This document shows positions 39,493 through 50,815 of a DNA stretch of 64,000 nt, in pieces (within the stretch, counting starts at the first letter, position 1; each line of letters opens with the position of its first letter). The DNA lies in the NCBI GenBank assembly GCA_035457485.1, contig DATIBO010000006.1, forward strand, positions 562,659-626,658. Direction: 5' to 3'. Both the position numbers and the translations under genes were made by a program. Below the pieces are notes generated by a model. It did not search any database. It was not told the origin of the DNA and was given only the letters and a program-made list of their open reading frames with translations. The DNA comes from Candidatus Saccharimonadales bacterium. GTDB taxonomy: Bacteria; Patescibacteriota; Saccharimonadia; Saccharimonadales; EFPC-124.

Positions 39493-40395
39493 ATGGACAT
39501 ACTCGTAAAACTTTTACCCACGTTTGGCTTGATAGGTCTCGGTTACTTCCTTAAACGACAGGGCATATTTAATGCCGACTTAGGTCGAACCTTGCTCAAA
39601 TTTGTATTTTTGGTGGCCGCGCCTGTACTGACATTGCGGTCAATAAGCCAGCTACATCTCGATTCTTCGCTGCTCGCTATTTTCATATTGCCTCTAGTGC
39701 TAACCGCTGCGTCATACGTCTTAGTTAAACCACTCGAGAAGAGAGTTAACCTCAAGCCCAAACAATTTGCAGTATTTCTCATGGCTACAATGGCCGTCAA
39801 TTCTGGATTCACACTTCCATTCGTAATGTCTATTGCTGGGGATGATGGCGCAGCAAGAGTGGCACTTTTTAACGTTTTGAACGGCTTCATGGTTTTTGGC
39901 TGGGTGTATTCGATTGCTATTTCCTACGGCCATCGAGAAAACCTACGTAAAATAGATATACTGAAAGCAGTTACTGTTACGCCGGCTTTCATTACGCTAA
40001 TTGTTGCGCTCGCCATGAACTTCACTAGTACTGAGATTCCTAGCTGGATAAGCCCGACAGTGAATATGCTGGCAGATCTAACTGCGCCACTAATTTTGCT
40101 TGCCCTTGGACTTATCTTAGAACCTCGGCTCATGTTCCCGACGCAGACGTTTCAGTCGCTATTTATCCGAATGGTAGGTGGGCTAGCAATTGGTGTTGCG
40201 TTCGTAATAGTATTCGGCTTGACGGGCGTGGACAGGATAGCCGTGTTGATCCTAGCGGCTTCGCCCGTTGGTTTTAATGCCGTAACATTTTCGTCCTTAG
40301 AGAAACTAGACGATACATTTGCGGCTAGCATTGTTAGTATGGGGCTGCTCGCCGGCCTAGTACTTATATCTATATTAACGGTACTCCTTAGCTAG
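39493..40395 (+). CDS. AEC-family (auxin efflux carrier / permease) transporter
   Basis: About 10 TM segments; typical AEC N- and C-terminal sequences. Confidence 0.7.
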   Translation: MDILVKLLPTFGLIGLGYFLKRQGIFNADLGRTLLKFVFLVAAPVLTLRSISQLHLDSSLLAIFILPLVLTAASYVLVKPLEKRVNLKPKQFAVFLMATMAVNSGFTLPFVMSIAGDDGAARVALFNVLNGFMVFGWVYSIAISYGHRENLRKIDILKAVTVTPAFITLIVALAMNFTSTEIPSWISPTVNMLADLTAPLILLALGLILEPRLMFPTQTFQSLFIRMVGGLAIGVAFVIVFGLTGVDRIAVLILAASPVGFNAVTFSSLEKLDDTFAASIVSMGLLAGLVLISILTVLLS

Positions 40396-40519
40396 AATCT
40401 TCATCCATAACAGCTCTAATCTCTTCAATATCAACTTTATCTAGCTCACCGGGAGTTATCTTAGCGAACTGAAACCCCTGCCAGGAATTTTCGTATCTGT
40501 TAATTACGATTTTCTTCAT
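40388..40519 (-). CDS. 43-aa micro-protein, WQG[FW]Q family copy 1
   Basis: MKKIVINRYENSWQGFQFAKITPGELDKVDIEEIRAVMDEDSS. GAGGAAA RBS. Convergent with the AEC gene, overlapping its end by 8 nt. Confidence 0.55.
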   Translation of the reverse strand: MKKIVINRYENSWQGFQFAKITPGELDKVDIEEIRAVMDEDSS

Positions 40520-40537
40520 AGCTATTAAATTTCCTCA

Positions 40538-40554
40538 TCTGTTAAAAAGTTCGA
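40538..40554. repeat. 17-nt conserved box TCTGTTAAAAAGTTCGA, copy 1 (5' UTR of micro-ORF 1)
   Basis: Identical 17-mer at 41687-41703. Confidence 0.7.
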
Positions 40555-40601
40555 GTCCTGACACTGGGAGAACGGGCTGAACTTTGGTATTATTAGCGAA
40601 T

Positions 40602-41501
40602 ATGAAAGCCAAAAAAGCCTCTCGTGCGCCAATCGGCGCAAGCCTGATAGTACTGTCGTCAGTTTTTTACGCTACATATGGTGTATGGACCGTACTCATG
40701 GGCAATTTTTTTGGTAGTTTTACGGCTAGCGCCCTACGCTGCCTATTAGTACTCGGCGGTTTAATCATCGTCGCCATTGCGCGTCGAGAACTACAAAAAA
40801 TTAACTGGCGTCGTGACCGTAAATGGTTAGTGACTATGGTTATCTCGTCAATTTTTGTTTCTGCGCCGCTATATTATGCGGTCTTAAATGCCGGCATTGG
40901 CATAAGCCTTGCCATTGCTTATATTGGCATCGTCATCGGTATGTTTATGTTTGGCTGGTTGTTTGAAGGCGAACGATTTACTAGAGAAAAATTAGTGGCA
41001 ACTATGCTAGGTGTATTCGGCATCGTGTTAGTATTTTCACCGAGCATTAAATTAGGTGGTTGGCTGGCGCTTGTCGGCGCATTAGTGGCCGGATTAGCAA
41101 CTGCCGCCAACATGGCGACGGCTAAAAAAGTTCCATATAACGGGTCACAATCTGCCATTTTAGTATGGGGATCTGGCGTAATCGCAAATGTGCCCCTAGT
41201 TTTCCTACTTGGAGAGCCGCTGCCATCAATTGGATGGCATGTCCAATGGATATACCTGCTATTGTTCGCAGTCGCATCCTTAGTAGCTTCGTGGACGTTT
41301 ATTAAAGGACTAAAGTTGGTGGAGGCAGGCGCAGCAGGTATTTTGGGCTTACTAGAAGTCGTATTTGGAGTACTATTCGGTGTCATCTTCTTCCATGAAC
41401 GCCCTAGTCTCGTGGTTCTGATTGGAATTGCAAGTATCGTTGCTGCTGCGGCCATACCGTACTTGCAGCACTACAATGCCCGGAGGGGCACATTAGATTA
41501 A
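40602..41501 (+). CDS. DMT-superfamily (EamA-like) transporter, apparently leaderless
   Basis: 10 TM segments forming two EamA-like halves. TATTAT (40588-40593) lies 8 nt before ATG 40602. Confidence 0.7.
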   Translation: MKAKKASRAPIGASLIVLSSVFYATYGVWTVLMGNFFGSFTASALRCLLVLGGLIIVAIARRELQKINWRRDRKWLVTMVISSIFVSAPLYYAVLNAGIGISLAIAYIGIVIGMFMFGWLFEGERFTREKLVATMLGVFGIVLVFSPSIKLGGWLALVGALVAGLATAANMATAKKVPYNGSQSAILVWGSGVIANVPLVFLLGEPLPSIGWHVQWIYLLLFAVASLVASWTFIKGLKLVEAGAAGILGLLEVVFGVLFGVIFFHERPSLVVLIGIASIVAAAAIPYLQHYNARRGTLD

Positions 41502-41677
41502 CCTGAGCCTGGGTCGAAAAGCTCGCGAATCTCATCAACATCCACTTTTTCAAGTTCCTCATCTGTAGGAGTTTGATTCCCGAACTGCCACCCCTGCCAG
41601 ATCAAGTTTGAAGTATTGTGACCGAACCTCACCTCTGTTGAGTTTTTTGTTTTTCTAAGATTTGACATTTTACGCAT
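41498..41677 (-). CDS. 59-aa micro-protein, WQG[FW]Q family copy 2
   Basis: MRKMSNLRKTKNSTEVRFGHNTSNLIWQGWQFGNQTPTDEELEKVDVDEIRELFDPGSG. AGAGG RBS. Overlaps the DMT stop by 4 nt. Confidence 0.55.
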   Translation of the reverse strand: MRKMSNLRKTKNSTEVRFGHNTSNLIWQGWQFGNQTPTDEELEKVDVDEIRELFDPGSG

Positions 41678-41686
41678 ACATCAACC

Positions 41687-41703
41687 TCTGTTAAAAAGTT
41701 CGA
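41687..41703. repeat. 17-nt conserved box TCTGTTAAAAAGTTCGA, copy 2
   Basis: Identical to 40538-40554. Confidence 0.7.
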
Positions 41704-41742
41704 TTCCATTCTCTCGTTAATATCTTTTGTTATAGTAGATCT

Positions 41743-42729
41743 ATGCAAAACACACAAACACCACAATCCGTTCCAGAGCACCTTGTTAAAGCAAATCCTA
41801 AATTGTGGCAAGTTGCCAATGAGATCAACTGGGAAGAGCTAGACCCAAACCTAAGTATTGTCGTAGGCAGTTCGTTTGTTGACCCTGCTGACCCATTTGG
41901 GCTAATGGGCAATCCATTCGCAGTTGCAGTTGGTACTAATGTTGCCGGGCTAGATGCAAACGAGCGTCTAGAGATCGCCAAACGAACAAACACGCCAGAG
42001 ACCGTCTTTATAAATAGCTGTGAGCACAATGAGACAAACAACTATGCCATTAACCTTACCGTTTATACGCCCTCCGGTTCTGAAATGGGAGCCTGTGCAC
42101 ACGGATTTTTAGGAGCAATTCAAACGTTGCTTCAAACTGGAAAAATTTCAGCCAATTCTACTTTGTCGATCGTGACCACACTCAACACCTCAGCGAATGC
42201 TACTATTGACGAGCTCGGCAATATTGCTCTTGAATTTCAAGCTGCTGCACCGCAGTCACTAGTAGTCGACGGCGAAACACTTACCAATATTTACAGTATT
42301 TCGCTGGGTGATTACAAAAACTGCGGCGTGCTTTCTGTGGGTTCACCAAAACTTACTATTGAAATAGCACCAGAGGTCTTCGACAGCCTTCAGCGTAATC
42401 TGGGAAAAATAGACTACGAAGCACTCCTGAAGTTCCAGGACAGCGGTAAGGTTAACGGCATTCATATATTTTGCCGAAATCTTCAAACTATGCTCCCAGA
42501 AAAGTGTATTCAAAACAACGCCTATTCTGGCCCAGACAACCTGGCCGATCGCGCAACCGGTGTGTCAAATGCGGCCCAGATCAGCGCCGATGAAAATATT
42601 AAGGTAGGCCAATCGCTTAAGGTTACACAGTACAGTTTTAGCGGGCCCTCAGCCATCCTTGCGTTAACAAAACTCGAAAATGGGAAAATCATGGTTGGTG
42701 GTGCAACTGCACTGTTTAATGTAGAGTAG
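41743..42729 (+). CDS. PhzF-family (DAP-epimerase fold) isomerase-like protein, leaderless
   Basis: GNPFAV...PETVFI motif pattern typical of PhzF. TGTTATAGT ends 6 nt before the ATG. Confidence 0.6.
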   Translation: MQNTQTPQSVPEHLVKANPKLWQVANEINWEELDPNLSIVVGSSFVDPADPFGLMGNPFAVAVGTNVAGLDANERLEIAKRTNTPETVFINSCEHNETNNYAINLTVYTPSGSEMGACAHGFLGAIQTLLQTGKISANSTLSIVTTLNTSANATIDELGNIALEFQAAAPQSLVVDGETLTNIYSISLGDYKNCGVLSVGSPKLTIEIAPEVFDSLQRNLGKIDYEALLKFQDSGKVNGIHIFCRNLQTMLPEKCIQNNAYSGPDNLADRATGVSNAAQISADENIKVGQSLKVTQYSFSGPSAILALTKLENGKIMVGGATALFNVE

Positions 42730-42733
42730 ACAT

Positions 42734-42910
42734 TTAGCGGTCATTACTTTCAAGGAGTAATTTTCGTAATCGACCCAGTGATTCTTCATTGTAATTGTCT
42801 ATCCAAAACATTCGATCGGCCAACTGCCACCCCTGCCATGAAATTATCCAATAACTACAGATTGAACTGTAGATATTTTTATTTGGTAAAATAGAATCAT
42901 GGATAACCAC
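42734..42910 (-). CDS. Divergent third WQGWQ copy; start unclear (GTG?), possibly 5'-truncated or decaying
   Basis: ...SYWIISWQGWQLADRMFWIDNYNEESLGRLRKLLLESNDR. No ATG upstream of the motif. Lacks the 17-nt box. Confidence 0.3.
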   Translation of the reverse strand: MVIHDSILPNKNIYSSICSYWIISWQGWQLADRMFWIDNYNEESLGRLRKLLLESNDR

Positions 42911-42915
42911 GAGAA

Positions 42916-43044
42916 GTTGGATTTAACGTTGTGACGTTCTCATCACTAGAGAAGCTTGATGATACGTTTGCGGCAAGTATCGTAAGTACGGGGCTACTCG
43001 CTGGTCTGGTACTTATATCTGCGTTGACTATATTCCTTGGCTAA
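42916..43044 (+). pseudogene. 3' remnant (42 codons plus stop) of a second AEC-family transporter gene
   Basis: VGFNVVTFSSLEKLDDTFAASIVSTGLLAGLVLISALTIFLG matches the C-terminus of 39493..40395 at 36/42 residues. An in-frame stop lies just upstream, at 42904. Confidence 0.8.
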
Positions 43045-43126
43045 CACAGCGCGGGTTACCGCTTAATTGCTACCGCCAAACAACTAGCGACAAATACCCG
43101 TACCCTTTGCGAATTAAAATTCATAA

Positions 43127-43675
43127 CTATTTTAAAACCAAAAACTCTAGCGTAGTTCGCTGACCTAACTCTGTAATACGAGTTTTTTTAAGATTTACAT
43201 GATTCAAGCCTTCGAACAACTTTTGACCATCGCCTAAGATCACAGGTACAATGCTGACTTGGAGTTCGTCAATTAATCCGGCATTCAACAGCCGTGTGGC
43301 GACATTCGGCCCGCCTACCACCATTACGTTTTTACTGCCCGCAGCTTGCTTGGCCTGTTCAACCGCCTTTGCGGCATTATTTACAAATGTAAAACTTAAT
43401 CTATCGTTGCTTTTTGGAGTTTTTGCCGGAGCTTGTTCGGTGATTACGAAAATTGGAGTCTGATATTCGTAAGAGTCCGCGTAAGCATCCGGGTCGTCGG
43501 CCATTTCAAAAGTCCGTCTTCCCATTACAACTGCGCCGGTATTTGCGATTGATTCTTTCATAAAATCGCTTTCTGTAAACTCTTTAAAATCTGGGTAGAG
43601 TTCGGCTACGCTGCCGTTTTTGTCGTTAATAAAACCATCTACTGAGACGCTCATTCCAAAAATAACTTTAGCCAT
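43127..43675 (-). CDS. Dihydrofolate-reductase-like (RibD C-terminal domain) family protein
   Basis: MAKVIFGMSVSVDGFI... typical of this family. AGGAG RBS before ATG 43675. Confidence 0.75.
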   Translation of the reverse strand: MAKVIFGMSVSVDGFINDKNGSVAELYPDFKEFTESDFMKESIANTGAVVMGRRTFEMADDPDAYADSYEYQTPIFVITEQAPAKTPKSNDRLSFTFVNNAAKAVEQAKQAAGSKNVMVVGGPNVATRLLNAGLIDELQVSIVPVILGDGQKLFEGLNHVNLKKTRITELGQRTTLEFLVLK

Positions 43676-43750
43676 AAAACTCCTGTTTTTTACTATTATA
43701 GCTACCAAACGTCTTGTTGTCGTTGGTGATTTGTTTTAGTATTAATTTTT

Positions 43751-44584
43751 ATGTCAGAAACAGCTGTTAATACCTATTTGAATAGTCAATTTGTGCGTGA
43801 GCTTGAACGGCTAGGTGTTGCAAATGATACAACCGACACAAATGAAAAGCTTTTTAGAAAAATTGAGTGGGCGTTGCGAACACGCCTTATTGCAGGGCGA
43901 CTGGCGCTACGATATTACCAAAATCCACAAAGATTAATGCACGGAACCTACTTAAGGTATGAGGAAACTGGTGGCGTTTTAAAGCCGAACGCGCCCTGTA
44001 GAACTGATCGCCAGGGAAGGCTCTACCCAATGGGTCGGGCTGCAGTTTGCGCTACTCTAAACGACATTGAGCAGCCAATTCGAAAGGCCTTGCTTCATCA
44101 TAGGCGACCAGAGATGAGTGGAGTCAGAATCTCGCTTTATCGTTGGAAAGATTCGCTAGGACGACCTTGGAATTTTACAACCCAAGCCGCGTTAGATCGC
44201 CTGCAAGATGGCGCAATGGGCACGGTTATGTTCTGGCAAATGCATCAGCAAATACCACCGTTTTATGATGAAGCTACCGGTGAGACCTACGACAACGAAC
44301 GATGGATTTATGAAGATGTAAAGGTCAATAACGATCAATGGACAACCGTTGGATACGAAGATCTTAAGCTGGACTACGAATCGGGAATTCCTAGTCCAAA
44401 TCAGGATTTGTTCGTAATAAACGCTCCCGAGCAGGATGCGTTTGCGTTCCTGGATCTTTTATTAAAGCATGATAATTTTATTGATCTTGCAGACAAGGTA
44501 GGGATTGATATTTATCCTTTGAGTGGCTATTTCCCGTCGGACTTGAATCCTTACGTAATTAAGGCTACTCATTCAAGGAGGTAG
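43751..44584 (+). CDS. Hypothetical protein (277 aa)
   Basis: Long ORF at background GC. No family recognised. Confidence 0.55.
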   Translation: MSETAVNTYLNSQFVRELERLGVANDTTDTNEKLFRKIEWALRTRLIAGRLALRYYQNPQRLMHGTYLRYEETGGVLKPNAPCRTDRQGRLYPMGRAAVCATLNDIEQPIRKALLHHRRPEMSGVRISLYRWKDSLGRPWNFTTQAALDRLQDGAMGTVMFWQMHQQIPPFYDEATGETYDNERWIYEDVKVNNDQWTTVGYEDLKLDYESGIPSPNQDLFVINAPEQDAFAFLDLLLKHDNFIDLADKVGIDIYPLSGYFPSDLNPYVIKATHSRR

Positions 44585-44614
44585 CCCCGTCCCGCATAAC
44601 TCAGCGGGACAGGG
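44585..44614. terminator. GC-rich hairpin between the convergent genes
   Basis: CCCCGTCCCGC / GCGGGACAGGG stem (one mismatch), 8-nt loop. Confidence 0.55.
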
Positions 44615-44617
44615 CCT

Positions 44618-45898
44618 TTACACCCGAGCTGCTTGCAGTTTTTGCTGACTGCGCCGAAGCAAGTCACGGAATTCGACTCGAAGGAAGCTGTCCTCTGGTG
44701 CCTCGTTGAGTCTCTTCATGATGTGAAGGACCAGATCGTAGAGGTCACCGCAGTACACCGACCGGTTACGATAACCTATGCTTCCGTCGGGCAGAAGTTT
44801 CGCCCTCTCTGAAGGCAGACCGCCGCCACAGATCGAGAAGATGTCGCACGACTGACATTCAGACGCGCCTTCCGGGATTCCGCGTTCGTCGGTCATCCTC
44901 AGGATCCAGTACAGAGCGCGTGTCGCCTTGTCGTCGAACACGTTCAGGCCGAAGAGAGAATCCTCGCCTTGCTCGACGCTCTTGTACCAATCGGGGAGGG
45001 CGTAACTGCCATCTACGTCGACAGCGATAGCACCCATGATCCACGGGCCGATCATTTCGATGTTTTCGAACCACGCCAGCTCAAAATCGAGAGCGTAGCC
45101 AGCAATGTGCTGGATGATCTTTTCGAAGATCAAAATTCGGGGTTGCATCTTTTGCTCGACCCAGTGATCGAACAGGCGGCTGTACCAGTCGCCGTACGGA
45201 TTGTAGCCGTCCTCGACAGTCACGATGCCCGGTGGCGGTTCGTCCCAGTTGCCTAGCGGGCGAAGCGGGTCGATCGGCACGCCGAACTGCGACATGTAAT
45301 CGAGCCACGTTGCGGGGTCACGGTTAAACTGCGTGTACGACAGAATCGCGTCCAAAAGCCCCTTGTACCGTGGCTTACGTAGAATGTTCAGGCCACGCAA
45401 AACATCCGCGTGGCTGCTACGCCCGTTGTGGTAAAGGCGCATACCGTTGAATGCTTCGTCGCCATCCAGGCTGACACCGACGGTGATGCCCAGGCGGAAG
45501 AACTCTTCGGCGATCGCCTCTGTCAGCATTGTCGCGTTCGTTTGAACACTGATGTCGACCAAGACGCCAGGCAGCATGCTCCGAATCGAAGCGAATAGGC
45601 GGAAAATCGCCATACTCGCCAGCAGAGGCTCGCCACCATGCAGCACGATGCTGGTCGCCGAGAGTTGGTGCTCGCGCACATACTCAACGATCCGCTTAAT
45701 CGTCGTGCGTGCCGTCTTGACGGTCATCGCTTTAGGCAGATCTCGCCATGACTGATCCTTTAGGAAGAACATGTAGCAGTACGGTTCGCACTTAAGATTG
45801 CACCGGCGGTGAATCTTAATCACAAACTGCCTGGAGACATGCCTCTTTTCTATCCGGATCCGGCGAGGTCTCCTCAGCTCCTCTAGAGGAATATGCAA
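44618..45898 (-). CDS. Radical SAM/SPASM-domain peptide-maturase-like protein, FxsB-like, with CX3CX3C cluster motif
   Basis: ...HRRCNLKCEPYCYMF..DQSW..VLHGGEPLL..SLDGD..GRSSH..CQSCDIFSICGGG..SVYCGDL. TTG start 6 nt after AAGGAG. Confidence 0.75.
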   Translation of the reverse strand: MHIPLEELRRPRRIRIEKRHVSRQFVIKIHRRCNLKCEPYCYMFFLKDQSWRDLPKAMTVKTARTTIKRIVEYVREHQLSATSIVLHGGEPLLASMAIFRLFASIRSMLPGVLVDISVQTNATMLTEAIAEEFFRLGITVGVSLDGDEAFNGMRLYHNGRSSHADVLRGLNILRKPRYKGLLDAILSYTQFNRDPATWLDYMSQFGVPIDPLRPLGNWDEPPPGIVTVEDGYNPYGDWYSRLFDHWVEQKMQPRILIFEKIIQHIAGYALDFELAWFENIEMIGPWIMGAIAVDVDGSYALPDWYKSVEQGEDSLFGLNVFDDKATRALYWILRMTDERGIPEGASECQSCDIFSICGGGLPSERAKLLPDGSIGYRNRSVYCGDLYDLVLHIMKRLNEAPEDSFLRVEFRDLLRRSQQKLQAARV

Positions 45899-46025
45899 TT
45901 TCAGCTCCTTAGGTGCGCGGCATCGTTGCCGTAAGTGTATTTTATCACTTGAATAAAAATCGTTTTAATGCAAACCTAAAAGTACAACACGAGGTGTTGA
46001 AGAATGGCCAGAGGAGGTGAAAAAT

Positions 46026-46328
46026 ATGAGCCTGGTCACAGAGCTGGTAAAGCCCGGTCCGACCGATCTGCGGGAGATCCGCATGAATCGGTTGCGTGGT
46101 GAGATGGGAGCACGTGTCCGCCCGCGCAAGCGCGGTGGGTCGCGCCGCCCGCCGAACCGCGAGCCTTACATGCCGTTCACGATCGGATCCTCGAGTCGAC
46201 GTCGCGGCAGTGACGTTCCGTGGACACTGATGGCCGCCGCATTCCAGTCGAGCGGAGCCAGACGTCTGCGCGTGTTCCGGCGCCGTGTTGGCGTGTACGT
46301 CACCGTACACGCGCGTGTGCTCGGCTGA
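46026..46328 (+). CDS. Arg-rich 100-aa ORF of doubtful coding status
   Basis: Strong GAGGAGG RBS 8 nt before the ATG, and the highest GC at third positions of this frame. However, composition is extreme (Arg/Gly/Pro) and no family was recognised. Confidence 0.3.
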   Translation: MSLVTELVKPGPTDLREIRMNRLRGEMGARVRPRKRGGSRRPPNREPYMPFTIGSSSRRRGSDVPWTLMAAAFQSSGARRLRVFRRRVGVYVTVHARVLG

Positions 46329-46345
46329 TCAGCTGAGCAGTACAC

Positions 46346-46382
46346 GCAAAAAAGCCCGGTTCCCTCATTGCGGAACCGGGCC
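46346..46382 (-). terminator. Rho-independent terminator of the Mur-ligase gene
   Basis: CCCGGTTCC / GGAACCGGG stem followed, on the minus strand, by TTTTTT. Confidence 0.75.
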
Positions 46383-46391
46383 GCATCAAAC

Positions 46392-47774
46392 TTATCTAAC
46401 TTTGCTTGCTAGCTCGTTGGCAACGTCATCGTAACCCGAAACGGTCATGCTTAAAATTACGTCACCAGGTTCAGAGTTCTCGACCACTTGCGTAACTAAG
46501 TCGGATCGATCTGGTACGAAAACAGAGTTATTCTTAAGGTCATCTGGTAAACCATCAATTATCTCTTGCCCGCTAACTGTACGTTGATTAGCAAGTTCAC
46601 GCGCAGGTTCGACATCGCACATATATAGTTTGTCGGCGCCATCAAAGGCCTGATAATACTCTTTAAGCAAAGTCTGCGTGCGCGAGTATGTATGTGGCCG
46701 ATAAATTACAATCAGCCGTCGGCCGGAAAAATGCAACTTTGCTGCTTCGATAGTGGTTTTAACTTCGGTAGGGTGGTGGGCGTAATCGTCAATTACCGTG
46801 ATTTTGTCGTTCACCAAAATATTAAACCGCCTAAAAGCGCCTTTAAAAGTGGCCGCGCCTCGCTTAATTTGGTCAAAACTTAGTCCCTCATTTAAAGTGG
46901 CCGCGACAGCCGCCAGACTGTTAGCAACGTTGTGTTTGCCGTAAACTGAAGCCGTGAGTTCCCCAAGCGACTCACCGTTCTTAATAACCTGATAGCTTAT
47001 GCCTTTTTCATTAAAGTCTATGTTTTTAGCCGTAAAGTTGCCAGACCGTAAACTATAAGTTATAACTTGTGCTGCAGAGCTTTTACTAACTTCAAGCGCA
47101 AGTTCGTCGTCGGCGCAAACAATCATTTTACCTATTTTTGGCAGATCGCCAACAAGTTTTTTAAAAGCATTTAAATATGAGTCCATAGTAGGATAGGCAT
47201 CTGGGTGATCGTGTTCAATCGAAGTCAAAATCAAAGTGTCGGGATGGTAATAATTGAATTTAGGCTGATCATCGAGTGTGGATGCCTTGTATTCATCTGC
47301 CTCAACCACTACGATTTTGGCGTTCTCGAGACGCGAACTCGATTTAAAGTTAAATGGTCTAACGCCAATTAAATAGTCGGGCTTAAGCCCAGCAGATTCA
47401 ATAATCCAGGCAATTAGCGATGTAGTGGTTGTTTTGCCGTGAGTTCCCGCAACGGCAATTACTTTTTTGCCCATTGTGAGCTGGCCAAAAAGCTCGGCAA
47501 AAGATAAAATTTTCAAATTGCGTTCGCGTGCTTCTTTAATAATTGGATGGTCTTCTTTGCCATGATGACCGCTAATTACTATGGTATCTACATCTTTTAA
47601 AAGCTCTGGGCTATATTTGGTGGTCCAGTTCAGCGAATTTTCATCGAGCCAATCACTCATCGGAGGACCGGCGGTTTCATCTAGGCCGCTAACTATAAAG
47701 CCTTGTTGTTGTGAAGCCAGGGCGAGCCCCCCCATGGCATGACCGGCGATCCCCAAAAAGAATAGATGTTTCAT
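46392..47774 (-). CDS. Mur ligase family, Mpl-like (UDP-MurNAc:tripeptide ligase) or MurC-like
   Basis: N-terminus GIAGHAMGGLA...PPMS resembles Mpl. GTHGKTTT P-loop. Confidence 0.75.
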   Translation of the reverse strand: MKHLFFLGIAGHAMGGLALASQQQGFIVSGLDETAGPPMSDWLDENSLNWTTKYSPELLKDVDTIVISGHHGKEDHPIIKEARERNLKILSFAELFGQLTMGKKVIAVAGTHGKTTTTSLIAWIIESAGLKPDYLIGVRPFNFKSSSRLENAKIVVVEADEYKASTLDDQPKFNYYHPDTLILTSIEHDHPDAYPTMDSYLNAFKKLVGDLPKIGKMIVCADDELALEVSKSSAAQVITYSLRSGNFTAKNIDFNEKGISYQVIKNGESLGELTASVYGKHNVANSLAAVAATLNEGLSFDQIKRGAATFKGAFRRFNILVNDKITVIDDYAHHPTEVKTTIEAAKLHFSGRRLIVIYRPHTYSRTQTLLKEYYQAFDGADKLYMCDVEPARELANQRTVSGQEIIDGLPDDLKNNSVFVPDRSDLVTQVVENSEPGDVILSMTVSGYDDVANELASKVR

Positions 47775-47832
47775 AAAATGATTTTAGCAAACAAAAACGA
47801 GGGAGCAAAAACTGCCGCCCTCGTTTTACTCA

Positions 47833-48471
47833 TTACAAAGCTTGAACCGGCCAGACCTGGAAGTTTGGACACCAGGCAGTAACTGGCGAAGTCACACTTA
47901 GGTATCCAACATCGTTCGGAGGATAAACCCTAAGTTTAGTCGCCCCAGTTTTACATTCTCCATTTGTAAAGTTTGCTTGGTTACTTACGCTAATTGGTGC
48001 TTTAACCTTTGTATTTGGCGCAAGCGACAGTTTAGCTTCTGGTGCGTTAGCAACACGGTTTGCCGGCTCGCCGACTATATTACCGTTGCTATTGACAAAC
48101 GAAACTCCAGGGTAACCAAACAAAGCACATGTTCTACTGCCTGTGTTGGTAAAGATCAAATCATACGAAAGCGTTCCAGCGCCGGTACCACTTCCTTCTT
48201 GAACAGTAAGTGACAGCTCATCTGTATTACATGTAGTTTCTGTAGTTGTCTTTGGTGGCGCTAGCAAAGTAGCCGCAGCCGTGGCCTTAACTTGCTCAAG
48301 CTCGGCAAGACTGGTTTCTTGCGCAGCTTTTTGCTCCTGTTCTTTTACAGACTTGCCATAAAAATATCCGCCAATCGCCGCAGCAATCAGCAAGACCAGT
48401 GCCACGACAACCACGATAATTAACGTATTAGATGATTTATTTGTTTGGGGTGGGGGTGTTTCGTATTCCAT
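47833..48471 (-). CDS. Membrane-anchored DUF4232-like protein
   Basis: N-terminal TM. 'LIFTNTGSRTCALFGYPGVSF' pattern typical of DUF4232. Confidence 0.65.
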   Translation of the reverse strand: MEYETPPPQTNKSSNTLIIVVVVALVLLIAAAIGGYFYGKSVKEQEQKAAQETSLAELEQVKATAAATLLAPPKTTTETTCNTDELSLTVQEGSGTGAGTLSYDLIFTNTGSRTCALFGYPGVSFVNSNGNIVGEPANRVANAPEAKLSLAPNTKVKAPISVSNQANFTNGECKTGATKLRVYPPNDVGYLSVTSPVTAWCPNFQVWPVQAL

Positions 48472-50118: not shown

Positions 50119-50189
50119 TTTTTTAAAGCTTTTATGTTTACATATTGTTAATCCAGCTACTTTTTAACAGATGGGCTGGCCTGAACCTA

Positions 50190-50815
50190 CGATTTTTTTG
50201 GAGTGATCACCATGACCACCGCCGCCAACGCTATTTCGGCGCTAACCCAGGAAACAACCCGGCTGCCAATGTATTACTCGACAGCGCCGGGCACCACGCG
50301 CACAGGCCGTCTGGTGCGCGAGCGCGACGGCGACCCAATCCTGCCTTGGCTCGAGCGCAAGTTCGACAGCACTCTCTACGTCGTACCTGGCATTGTGCCT
50401 ACGCTCGACCTGAGCGAGATGCTTGACAGTCTGCGTAGCCGTGCCCGAAATTCAACTCCGGGCCTTCGCTGGGCGCGCTGGTTGTCAGTGGACATCTGTG
50501 TAGGCATGCTGTGGCTCCTGGTAGCAAGCTACGACTGGTGGGCCGTGACGCCTGGGGTGCAGCTCTGGTGGACGGCCACGTTCGCCTTTGCCGGCCTCAG
50601 CGCGTTCGTTGGCTGGGACTGGCAGCGTGAGCAACCGAACATGCCCAGTCTGCACACAACCACAGTCGTGGTGGGCGTCAGTCTGACGCTTGCAGCCCTG
50701 GCGCTACTGTTCGGCACCGCATTGATGGCAACCAACATCGTCATGGGAATCTTCTCGTAGGGCAGCGGCCCTCCTCACAGTTTTGCTGGCGAAGGAGGCG
50801 CCGCAAAACTGAGAT
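50190..50815. other. GC-rich segment D
   Basis: 60-mer 50521-50580 has 41/60 G+C (hand count). Flanks are AT-rich. Confidence 0.6.
50212..50760 (+). CDS. GC-rich membrane protein (about 182 aa: soluble N-terminal half plus 3 Trp-rich TM segments)
   Basis: GGAG RBS before ATG 50212, with an alternative GTG at 50203. Hairpin downstream at about 50764-50808. Confidence 0.6.
   Translation: MTTAANAISALTQETTRLPMYYSTAPGTTRTGRLVRERDGDPILPWLERKFDSTLYVVPGIVPTLDLSEMLDSLRSRARNSTPGLRWARWLSVDICVGMLWLLVASYDWWAVTPGVQLWWTATFAFAGLSAFVGWDWQREQPNMPSLHTTTVVVGVSLTLAALALLFGTALMATNIVMGIFS

What the first reader, a model, noticed from the sequence alone, without database searches (positions are those of the whole stretch)
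44618..45898. Orphan FxsB-like radical SAM/SPASM maturase with CX3CX3C instead of the canonical CX3CX2C
The 426-aa protein follows, block by block, the pattern I recall for FxsB-family cyclophane-forming radical SAM/SPASM peptide maturases. The blocks are FV[IL]K[IV]H.RC.L.C..CY; DQSW; VLHGGEPLL; SLDGD...GRSSH; W[DE].PPP; CxxCxxxxxCGGG; and SVYC.DL. However, the SAM-cluster motif reads C-N-L-K-C-E-P-Y-C. I verified this on the DNA (tgc aat ctt aag tgc gaa ccg tac tgc). It has one extra residue between the second and third Cys. The gene is GC-elevated and starts at TTG behind a perfect AAGGAG. It has no other fxs genes around it and no peptide ending in FXSXX-COOH. A RiPP-type maturase in a minimal CPR genome, with a non-canonical cluster motif and no obvious substrate, is unusual. 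It may be inactive, it may bind the cluster differently, or it may act on a new substrate.
Basis: partly seen in the sequence, partly recalled or inferred. Interest (0 to 1): 0.75.

Follow-up and report, generated by a model that had tools for sequence, protein, structure and literature searches.

The report
FxsB-like peptide maturase with neighbouring precursor
This Saccharimonadales (CPR) genome carries a small foreign-looking two-gene cassette, a radical SAM enzyme plus the peptide it probably cross-links, and in this genome alone the enzyme has one extra proline inside its otherwise invariant iron-sulfur binding motif, which probably cripples it.

Summary
Window 44618-45898 (-) encodes a 426-aa radical SAM protein whose SAM-cluster motif reads CNLKCEPYC (CX3CX3C). 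A separate Logan assembly shows the same bases. All 221 other homologous proteins and all 80 actinobacterial loci checked read CX3CX2C. So does the syntenic orthologue (63% identity, CNLNCEYC). The change is therefore a private 3-nt (ccg, Pro39) insertion.

The "orphan" interpretation does not hold. A 100-aa Arg-rich ORF with a strong RBS is transcribed divergently 127 nt upstream (46026-46328, +). It contains AAFQS. Six peptides beside relatives, five of them equally divergent from the maturase, carry [AP]F[NQ]S at or near the C-terminus. The orthologous ORF (40% identity) keeps AAFQS and the 25-29-aa tail.

The locus is a minimal FxsA/FxsB-like three-residue cyclophane (triceptide) cassette:
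- It sits just downstream of murC in at least three Saccharimonadales lineages.
- Its GC3 is 0.70 against 0.42 for host genes.
- FxsB is the best-scoring family, but below the curated cutoff (258 vs 370 bits).
- There is no HExxH domain, FxsC or AAC(3)-like gene.

The maturase is otherwise intact and not fast-evolving. Whether CX3CX3C is active is unresolved; I lean towards impaired (about 0.6). Interest is moderate.

The parts
44618..45898 (-). FxsB-like radical SAM peptide maturase, 426 aa, TTG start. It has exactly 7 Cys: 33, 37, 41, 348, 351, 357 and 383.
   Evidence: ORF and translation. NCBIfam TIGR04269 FxsB 258.2 bits (cutoff 370) and YhhB 246.6 (cutoff 445). Pfam Radical_SAM 44.8 bits. 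AF2 model pLDDT 90.6; best PDB match is the ChlB rSAM domain, TM 0.79-0.91, 30% identity. The N-terminal extension and the start position are conserved with orthologue P0002, which uses ATG there.
45776..45802 (-). SAM-cluster motif C33-N-L-K-C37-E-P39-Y-C41 (CX3CX3C). The private inserted Pro codon ccg lies at 45782-45784.
   Evidence: DNA reading. Pro39 is a window-unique insert column. The orthologue reads TGC GAA TAC TGC. 221/222 proteins and 80/80 loci are canonical.
44750..44857 (-). Auxiliary-cluster cysteines C348-x2-C351-x5-C357-GGG ... C383. Four Cys are enough for one auxiliary [4Fe-4S]; this is not a full 7-Cys SPASM motif.
   Evidence: These are invariant columns in 65- and 12-sequence alignments. 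Cys positions. No Pfam SPASM hit.
45905..45910 (-). Shine-Dalgarno AAGGAG of the maturase, 6 nt before the TTG.
   Evidence: Sequence. The orthologous locus has AAGGAGG-N6-ATG at the same place.
45939..45968 (-). Promoter-like site TTAAAA-18-TAAAAT with a TG extension. It lies in the AT-rich 127-nt divergent intergenic region.
   Evidence: Consensus scan. The stretch is conserved with L001/L087 (AGCAAGTGTTACAATAC vs TTCAAGTGATAAAATAC).
46026..46328 (+). Candidate precursor peptide gene (FxsA-like), 100 aa, 21 Arg, pI 12. RBS GGAGG at 46013-46017. Transcribed divergently from the maturase.
   Evidence: ORF. Called as a gene in the Logan assembly and present as a 100-aa protein in the representative library. 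The orthologous 107-aa ORF in L087 is 40% identical (blastp E 2e-7, dN/dS about 0.47) and is the only open frame there. GC3 is 0.72.
46236..46250 (+). Proposed core motif A-A-F73-Q-S75, an Omega1-X2-X3 (F-x-S) cyclophane site.
   Evidence: F and S are invariant in the 7-peptide alignment of this clade. Actinobacterial FxsA peptides end in AF[NQ]S[SA][ILV].
46251..46325 (+). 25-aa Arg-rich C-terminal tail after FQS. It is absent from the short precursors of more distant relatives. Its mRNA forms two hairpins, with the stop codon in a hairpin loop.
   Evidence: The tail is conserved in length (25 vs 29 aa) and in its end (AR[VL]L..G*) in L087. L092, L002 and L003 stop 0-3 aa after the Ser, and L004 stops 9 aa after it. 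RNA fold z = -2.1; palindromes.
46353..46382 (-). murC intrinsic terminator, marking the right-hand boundary of the GC-rich cassette.
   Evidence: Terminator scan. The same arrangement is seen in L087 and L092.
44586..44616 (.). GC-rich hairpin (CCCGTCCCGC-N8-GCGGGACAGGG) between the convergent maturase and 277-aa genes, marking the left-hand boundary of the cassette.
   Evidence: Read from the sequence. GC falls to host level to its left.
46392..47774 (-). murC (context anchor, host composition). The cassette lies immediately downstream in three lineages.
   Evidence: TIGR01082 murC 368.8 bits. MurC is 68-70% identical among the window, L087 and L092, all with the cassette downstream. The cassette is absent downstream of murC in L088-L090.

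Best explanation
Window 44590-46350 is a compact, horizontally derived two-gene RiPP cassette of the FxsA/FxsB (triceptide, three-residue cyclophane) kind. It is inserted just downstream of murC in a Saccharimonadales genome. The two genes are read divergently from a shared 127-nt AT-rich promoter region.

Gene 1 (46026-46328, +) encodes a 100-aa, very basic precursor whose conserved site is A-A-F-Q-S. Gene 2 (44618-45898, -) encodes an FxsB-like radical SAM enzyme with one SAM-binding [4Fe-4S] site and a four-Cys site for one auxiliary cluster.

Inferred mechanism, by analogy with characterised triceptide synthases:
1. The reduced cluster cleaves SAM to give a 5'-deoxyadenosyl radical.
2. That radical abstracts a hydrogen from C-beta of Ser75.
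3. The carbon radical adds to the ring of Phe73.
4. The auxiliary cluster takes the electron, leaving a strained F-x-S cyclophane (-2 Da).

In this genome only, a 3-nt insertion (ccg, Pro39) converts the invariant CX3CX2C into CX3CX3C. My best reading is that this is a recent private mutation that weakens or abolishes SAM-cluster function in a gene that was under purifying selection until recently.

Shown: gene identities, the motif, synteny, uniqueness of the insertion, and the intactness and normal evolutionary rate of the rest of the gene. Inferred: the enzyme-substrate pairing, the chemistry, and the effect of the insertion.
For: Family and fold:
- FxsB and YhhB are the top NCBIfam hits.
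- The closest solved structure is the ChlB rSAM domain.
- Seven Cys are invariant across the family.

Precursor:
- Five loci of the same maturase clade (window, L087, L092, L002, L003) plus L004, whose L005 is a duplicate place, have a small divergent ORF 90-135 nt upstream with [AP]F[NQ]S. L003 also has a second one downstream.
- In 18 of 80 actinobacterial FxsB loci, an ...AF[NQ]S[SA][ILV]-COOH ORF lies immediately upstream.
- The window ORF is conserved with its orthologue as the only open frame.
- It has a strong RBS.

Synteny and origin:
- murC, then the divergent ORF, then the maturase, is seen in the window, L087/L001 and L092.
- GC3 of the cassette exceeds that of host genes in every locus. 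Actinobacterial FxsB genes have mean GC3 0.88.

Insertion:
- It is unique and absent from the orthologue.
- It is reproduced in a second assembly.
- Family-level natural variants listed by RadicalSAM.org all change the first spacer (CX4-11CX2C), never the CX2C spacer (PMC9477430).
- AF2 confidence over the loop is 83, against 91 in the canonical orthologue. A short helix after the third Cys is lost in the window model.

Recency:
- There is no excess of changes at conserved sites (14 vs 15 of 83 columns).
- Branch lengths to outgroups are equal.
- dN/dS is 0.14.
Against: - No experiment links this enzyme clade to these peptides.
- The TIGR04268 FxsA model does not hit any of the clade's peptides.
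- In the window and its orthologue the FQS site is 25-29 aa from the C-terminus, unlike FxSxx-COOH peptides.
- The maturase scores below the FxsB cutoff.
- For the claim of impairment: the gene has no other lesion, the precursor gene, RBS and promoter are intact, and the lineage is not accelerated. This is equally what a tolerated insertion would look like.
- The aromatic residue directly before the third Cys is retained.
- AF2 pLDDT differences are a weak guide to mutational effects.
- Taxonomy of L002 and L004/5 was not established.
Confidence: 0.55

Rival explanations
1. The cassette and pairing are the same, but the CX3CX3C enzyme is active. The extra proline bulges out of the loop, the three Cys still ligate the cluster, and Tyr40 still packs against SAM. 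This would be a natural radical SAM enzyme with an expanded second spacer.
For: The ORF is intact and every other invariant residue is retained. Branch length equals that of the canonical orthologue, and dN/dS is 0.14. The partner precursor gene and expression signals are intact. The Tyr-Cys dipeptide is preserved. Streamlined CPR genomes are expected to purge dead genes quickly (inference).
Against: None of about 300 other homologues shows any spacing change. No family-level precedent for a changed CX2C spacer appears in canonical-fold enzymes (PMC9477430). A literature search for CX3CX3C found only a misprint and an unrelated peptide motif. The variant is private to one genome, which is what a deleterious or post-relaxation mutation looks like. 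Predicted local structure is less confident.
Confidence: 0.33
2. The insertion is not biological. It is a sequencing or assembly error, or a minority allele promoted to the consensus.
For: Only one organism or sample carries it. The exact protein is on record only in SRR25158331 and in the NCBI MAG. A pattern search for either allele in JGI metagenomes found nothing.
Against: Two different assemblies are identical over 20,450 nt, including the ccg. An in-frame 3-nt insertion in non-repetitive sequence is not a typical error of short-read consensus (inference).
Confidence: 0.04
3. The divergent ORF is not the substrate. The maturase is a true orphan acting on peptides encoded elsewhere, for example the three small WQG[FW]Q ORFs 1.7-5.5 kb away, or it has a non-RiPP role.
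For: The FxsA HMM gives no hit and there are no detectable homologues in 1.84 billion representatives. The FQS site is internal. Three paralogous small ORFs with tandem aromatic-X-X motifs lie on the same strand at 40388-42910.
Against: The F-x-S ORF next to the maturase recurs in every locus of the clade, and F and S are invariant. The WQG[FW]Q ORFs are absent from all other maturase loci fetched. They are separated from the maturase by unrelated host-composition genes.
Confidence: 0.08

Closest known systems
fxs system of Actinomycetota: FxsB maturase (TIGR04269) with FxSxx-COOH peptide FxsA (TIGR04268)
   Same: FxsB is the best-scoring family. All signature blocks are shared, as is the four-Cys auxiliary motif CX2CX5CGGG...C. 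An adjacent small peptide carries AF[NQ]S.
   Different: The score is 258 bits, against a cutoff of 370 and 468-590 for actinobacterial members. There is no fused or neighbouring alpha-KG HExxH hydroxylase, FxsC or AAC(3)-like gene. The precursor is divergent rather than co-directional. FQS lies 25 aa from the C-terminus. The peptide is not recognised by TIGR04268. The motif is CX3CX3C. The host is Saccharimonadales.
ChlB, radical SAM domain of a fused rSAM/alpha-KG-HExxH triceptide synthase (PDB 9gm3, 9gmc)
   Same: It is the closest solved structure: E 1.3e-42 by sequence, 30% identity, TM 0.79-0.91. Its C-terminal Cys pattern is the same. It forms three-residue cyclophanes (PMC12912966 references 51 and 52; PMC11499958).
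   Different: ChlB has a canonical CX3CX2C motif (aligned as C-D-YC). It has a fused hydroxylase domain, and its native site is a YDR motif.
YhhB (NF041707), a His-Asn-Arg cyclophane synthase
   Same: It is the second-best family hit, 246.6 bits over the full length. It is a triceptide synthase (PMC11499958).
   Different: The score is far below the cutoff of 445, and the neighbouring peptide has F-Q-S rather than H-N-R.
anSME and other SPASM-domain radical SAM enzymes (PDB 4k37)
   Same: They share the radical SAM core and a C-terminal cluster-binding extension. TM is 0.67-0.79.
   Different: Identity is only 20%. SPASM domains carry 7-8 Cys for two auxiliary clusters (PMC9477430). This family conserves four Cys, and the Pfam SPASM model is not hit.
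Radical SAM families with non-canonical cluster motifs (CX4-11CX2C megaclusters; ThiC CX2CX4C)
   Same: They depart from CX3CX2C while retaining three Cys.
   Different: Those variants are fixed across whole families. In canonical-fold enzymes they alter only the first spacer. Here the second spacer is altered, in a single genome.

Membership tests
Radical SAM superfamily (PF04055) | Pfam model at or above the gathering score | tested here: met
   44.8 bits vs 29.5, residues 28-176.
Radical SAM superfamily (PF04055) | CX3CX2C motif ligating the SAM-binding [4Fe-4S] cluster | tested here: not met
   The motif reads C33-x3-C37-x3-C41. Three Cys are present but the second spacer is one residue longer.
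Radical SAM superfamily (PF04055) | Partial (beta/alpha)6 barrel fold with a GGE SAM-binding motif | tested here: met
   AF2 model with pLDDT 90.6 superposes on ChlB and anSME. HGGEP lies at residues 87-91.
Radical SAM superfamily (PF04055) | Reductive cleavage of SAM to a 5'-deoxyadenosyl radical | not testable with these tools
   This needs anaerobic biochemistry.
FxsB family (TIGR04269) | HMM score at or above the curated cutoff (370 bits) | tested here: not met
   258.2 bits. The canonical-motif orthologue P0002 also fails at 269.7, so the shortfall is not caused by the insertion. P0003 of the same clade just passes at 373.4.
FxsB family (TIGR04269) | FxsB is the best-matching model over the full length | tested here: met
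   Residues 23-394 match model positions 2-362 of 363, E 1.1e-76.
FxsB family (TIGR04269) | Neighbouring FxSxx-COOH peptide (TIGR04268) | tested here: inconclusive
   The adjacent ORF has AAFQS. However, the motif is followed by 25 aa, and TIGR04268 gives no hit even at E <= 10.
FxsB family (TIGR04269) | Companion genes or domains of the fxs system (alpha-KG HExxH hydroxylase, FxsC, AAC(3)-like) | tested here: not met
   They are present in reference locus L057. tblastn of those proteins against the 64-kb window gives nothing better than E 0.4.
Triceptide synthases (three-residue cyclophane-forming enzymes) | Omega1-X2-X3 motif (aromatic residue plus a residue cross-linked at C-beta) in a co-encoded precursor | tested here: met
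   F73-Q-S75 is invariant across the clade's seven peptides. The class definition is from PMC11499958.
Triceptide synthases (three-residue cyclophane-forming enzymes) | Formation of an aromatic-to-C-beta crosslink (-2 Da) | not testable with these tools
   This needs co-expression and MS/NMR.
YhhB (NF041707) | HMM score at or above the curated cutoff (445 bits) | tested here: not met
   246.6 bits.
SPASM domain | Seven or eight Cys binding two auxiliary [4Fe-4S] clusters | tested here: not met
   Only four C-terminal Cys (348, 351, 357, 383) exist and are conserved. There is no PF13186 hit.

The most novel reading that the evidence does not exclude
The CX3CX3C enzyme is catalytically competent. 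That would make it the first canonical-fold radical SAM enzyme shown to work with an expanded second spacer. It would operate in a Saccharimonadales-specific, murC-linked minimal triceptide cassette. Its precursor has acquired a conserved Arg-rich C-terminal tail, and the cassette was originally captured from high-GC Actinomycetota, the usual hosts of these epibionts.
Probability: 0.3. Interest if true: 0.65.

Novelty: new variant of a known kind. Interest (0 to 1): 0.42.

Why it matters
Three points would matter if confirmed.

1. It is a cheap natural test of how rigid the CX2C half of the radical SAM motif is. Native enzyme, a Pro39 deletion and the canonical orthologue can be compared directly.
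2. It shows that a subgroup of ultra-small Saccharimonadales genomes has kept a RiPP cassette at a fixed site next to murC. The cassette's composition points to high-GC donors, which bears on gene flow between CPR epibionts and their actinobacterial hosts and on what peptides these epibionts make.
3. It extends the FxS triceptide class to a minimal two-gene, divergently transcribed form that current FxsA/FxsB models do not annotate. NCBI calls the enzyme only "radical SAM protein".

If the enzyme is simply dead, the finding is an ordinary young loss-of-function allele.

Tried and rejected
- **Antisense ORF.** The 121-aa ORF 45945-46310 (-), with its aromatic-rich C-terminus, was considered as the precursor. 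It was rejected because the corresponding frames are closed in L087, and only the divergent frame is open in both genomes.
- **Stop-codon loss in this genome.** I considered that the 25-aa tail came from a stop-codon loss specific to this genome. This was rejected because the orthologue has a 29-aa tail with a similar end. A stop loss in their common ancestor remains possible. L092 stops 3 aa after the Ser and is followed by its own hairpin, and the window tail region is hairpin-rich.
- **HMM searches of the small peptides.** Pfam, NCBIfam and TIGR04268 gave no hits.
- **phmmer of the 100-aa ORF** against 1.84 billion representatives returned only itself plus low-complexity noise.
These were useful as a reference set but gave no CPR relatives.
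- **Exact or gapped DNA pattern** for either allele in JGI metagenomes gave no match.
- **Other local checks.** Look-up of the NCBI 401-aa version found it not on record. Flanking direct repeats or mobile-element scars were not convincing. Rfam on 43000-48000 gave no match.
- **Literature.** A search for CX3CX3C found one misprint for NifB and one unrelated peptide motif. A search with 'fxs' was swamped by fragile X papers. The Ruel et al. ChlB paper is not held.
- **General decay of the maturase** was rejected. Deviations at conserved sites, the relative rate and dN/dS are all normal.
- **WQG[FW]Q small ORFs as substrates** showed no co-occurrence with the maturase in other loci.
Full report
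**1. The observation**

The minus-strand ORF 44618-45898 encodes 426 aa. It starts at TTG, six bases after AAGGAG. Residues 33-41 read C-N-L-K-C-E-P-Y-C, encoded at 45776-45802 as tgc aat ctt aag tgc gaa ccg tac tgc.

The region 44600-46400 has GC 0.56-0.62, against 0.455 for the window. GC3 of the gene is 0.70, against 0.41-0.44 for the flanking genes.

An identical protein is annotated by NCBI as "radical SAM protein" in a Candidatus Saccharimonadales MAG on an 889-kb contig. That annotation starts at Val26. The closest relative, P0002, shares the 25 N-terminal residues and has ATG where the window has TTG.

**2. Is the motif real and unusual?**

- In alignments, Pro39 sits in a column that is a gap in every other sequence.
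- Of 222 family proteins retrieved in two searches, 221 read CX3CX2C. The only exception is the window protein.
- All 80 actinobacterial genomic loci are canonical.
- A Logan assembly of run SRR25158331 is 100% identical to window 37286-57735, ccg included. This excludes an error of one assembler. It may rest on the same reads, and the exact protein is on record nowhere else.
- A pattern search for either allele in JGI metagenomes found nothing.
- The RadicalSAM.org survey lists natural family-level variants only in the first spacer: CX4, 5, 6, 7, 8, 9 and 11 before CX2C (PMC9477430).
- A full-text search for CX3CX3C gave only a misprint and an unrelated peptide motif.

**3. What the protein is**

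NCBIfam ranks FxsB (TIGR04269) first at 258.2 bits against a cutoff of 370. YhhB is second at 246.6 bits against a cutoff of 445. Both match over the full length. Pfam recognises the radical SAM core but no SPASM domain.

The AF2 model is confident (pLDDT 90.6). Its best solved match is the radical SAM domain of ChlB, a triceptide synthase (PDB 9gm3/9gmc; 30% identity, TM 0.79-0.91). ChlB and YhhB are described as three-residue cyclophane synthases acting on aromatic-X-X motifs (PMC11499958 and PMC12912966).

The protein has exactly seven Cys. Three are in the SAM-cluster motif. Four (C348, C351, C357, C383) are invariant across the family. That is enough for one auxiliary cluster, not the 7-8 Cys of a full SPASM domain.

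A reference actinobacterial locus (L057) has four components: an FxsA peptide, FxsB fused to an alpha-KG HExxH hydroxylase (589 bits), an AAC(3)-like protein, and FxsC. Apart from the maturase itself and the candidate FxsA-like ORF described in section 4, none has a counterpart in the 64-kb window.

**4. The gene is not an orphan**

In the nearest relatives, a small ORF lies on the opposite strand 90-135 nt upstream of the maturase and ends in an F-x-S motif:

| Locus | Peptide ending |
|---|---|
| L002 | ...GPFNSSL* |
| L003 (upstream) | ...YAFNS* |
| L003 (second peptide, downstream of the maturase) | ...FAFQS* |
| L004/5 | ...AFNSVVPAQQSV* |

The window has the same arrangement. ORF 46026-46328 (+) starts 127 nt from the maturase start, behind GGAGG. 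It encodes 100 aa with 21 Arg (pI 12) and contains ...LMAAAFQSSGARRL....

Two further loci settle the point.

- **L087** overlaps L001, which carries P0002. It shows murC (69.7% identical), a terminator, a divergent 107-aa ORF, an AT-rich promoter and the maturase with CNLNCEYC. Its ORF reads ...RTAAFQSGDLRRRR...ARLLVG*. It is 40% identical to the window ORF (pairwise E 2e-7, dN/dS about 0.47). It is the only open frame across that stretch.
- **L092** shows murC (69.5% identical), a divergent 58-aa ORF ending ...YAFQSFSP*, and then maturase P0248.

In the seven-peptide alignment, the Phe and Ser of the motif are invariant. In 18 of 80 actinobacterial FxsB loci, an ORF ending ...AF[NQ]S[SA][ILV] lies immediately upstream on the same strand. 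In one locus it is divergent.

TIGR04268 does not recognise any peptide of the window's clade. The window ORF has no detectable homologue among 1.84 billion representatives. Both results are usual for RiPP precursors.

The 25-29-aa Arg-rich tail after FQS is shared by the window and L087, so it is not damage specific to this genome. It may stem from an older stop loss. L092 stops 3 aa after the Ser and is followed by its own hairpin. The window tail is encoded by hairpin-forming sequence, with the stop codon in a hairpin loop.

**5. Origin and distribution**

The maturases of the window, P0002-P0005 and P0244-P0248 form a clade separate from actinobacterial FxsB. Their FxsB scores run from 258 to 373 bits.

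The cassette lies downstream of murC in three lineages whose MurC proteins are 68-70% identical. Three other Saccharimonadales loci, with MurC 62-63% identical, carry unrelated genes there. L003 shares other synteny with the window: the 208-aa ORF and the L33 gene.

Cassette GC3 exceeds that of the host genes in every locus:

| Locus | Cassette GC3 | Host-gene GC3 |
|---|---|---|
| Window | 0.70 | 0.41-0.44 |
| L001/L087 | 0.69 | 0.32 |
| L092 | 0.51 | 0.39 |
| L003 | 0.61 | 0.49-0.55 |

Actinobacterial FxsB genes average 0.88. The pattern fits an old capture from a high-GC donor followed by partial amelioration and vertical descent. Repeated transfers cannot be excluded, and the donor identity is inferred.

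No repeats or mobile-element scars flank the cassette. There is no Rfam match.

**6. Is the enzyme alive?**

Apart from Pro39 and one other single-residue insertion (Phe316), the window protein keeps all family-invariant residues.

- At columns that are at least 95% conserved, it deviates at 14 of 83. The canonical orthologue deviates at 15, and most of these are shared clade changes.
- It is slightly closer to outgroups than the orthologue (43.3 vs 41.5% to P0003; 43.6 vs 41.5% to P0248). NJ branch lengths are equal.
- dN/dS against the orthologue is 0.14, with saturated dS.

The insertion is therefore either recent or tolerated.

For impairment:
- the CX2C spacing is invariant across the family and across listed family-level variants;
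- the variant is private to one genome;
- proline is restrictive;
- AF2 loop confidence falls from 91 to 83, and a short helix is lost relative to the orthologue model.

For tolerance:
- the gene, its partner gene and its signals are pristine;
- the Tyr-Cys dipeptide is retained.

I put impaired or inactive at about 0.6, active at about 0.33, and artefact at about 0.04.

**7. Verdict**

The locus is a minimal, divergently transcribed FxsA/FxsB-like triceptide cassette that recurs next to murC in a Saccharimonadales subgroup. In this genome it carries a private one-codon insertion in the SAM-cluster motif. It is a new variant of a known kind. Its interest depends on whether the CX3CX3C enzyme works, which a simple co-expression experiment would decide.

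Noticed in passing
window 50145-50800 (ORF 50203-50760, +): A second GC-rich island (GC 0.62-0.63, GC3 0.75) encodes a 185-aa predicted membrane protein with no Pfam or NCBIfam family. It sits between host-composition genes 4.3 kb from the cassette and may be another high-GC acquisition.
   Followed up: partly
window 40388-40519, 41498-41677, 42734-42910 (all minus strand): Three paralogous small ORFs (43-59 aa) share WQG[FW]Q[FL]. Two of them also share ...EL[DE]KVD[IV][DE]EIR. Each abuts, convergently, the 3' end of a plus-strand gene (Mem_trans, EamA, PhzF-like). There is no family hit, and they are absent from the other maturase loci fetched.
   Followed up: partly
L092 1600-2922 (protein P0248): This relative's auxiliary-cluster motif reads CQQNHCGIYKICGGG (CX4CX5C) instead of the family's CX2CX5C. 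It is another spacing variant in the same clade, here in the auxiliary site.
   Followed up: no
L003 182-316 and 1869-2018: Two different FxS peptides (ending AFNS* and FAFQS*) flank one maturase. Both lie on the strand opposite to the enzyme.
   Followed up: no
L004 1784-2866 and 8355-8999: A second radical SAM/SPASM gene with a Cys-rich C-terminus, and a Peptidase_C39_2 gene, lie within 4 kb of the FxsB-like gene. This may be a larger RiPP neighbourhood in that organism, whose taxonomy was not established.
   Followed up: no
window 46392-47774 and loci L087-L090, L092: The region immediately downstream of murC is a variable spot among related Saccharimonadales. It holds the cassette in three lineages. 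In three others it holds unrelated genes: an FtsX/ABC pair, an AlkZ-like gene, or hypothetical genes.
   Followed up: partly
window 43751-44584 (+): A 277-aa ORF convergent with the maturase has host-like composition, no family hit, and no counterpart next to the maturase in other loci.
   Followed up: partly
window 45896-45898: The maturase uses a TTG start where the orthologue has ATG, and AAGGAG where the orthologue has AAGGAGG. This is possibly a slight down-tuning of translation in the same genome that carries the Pro insertion.
   Followed up: no
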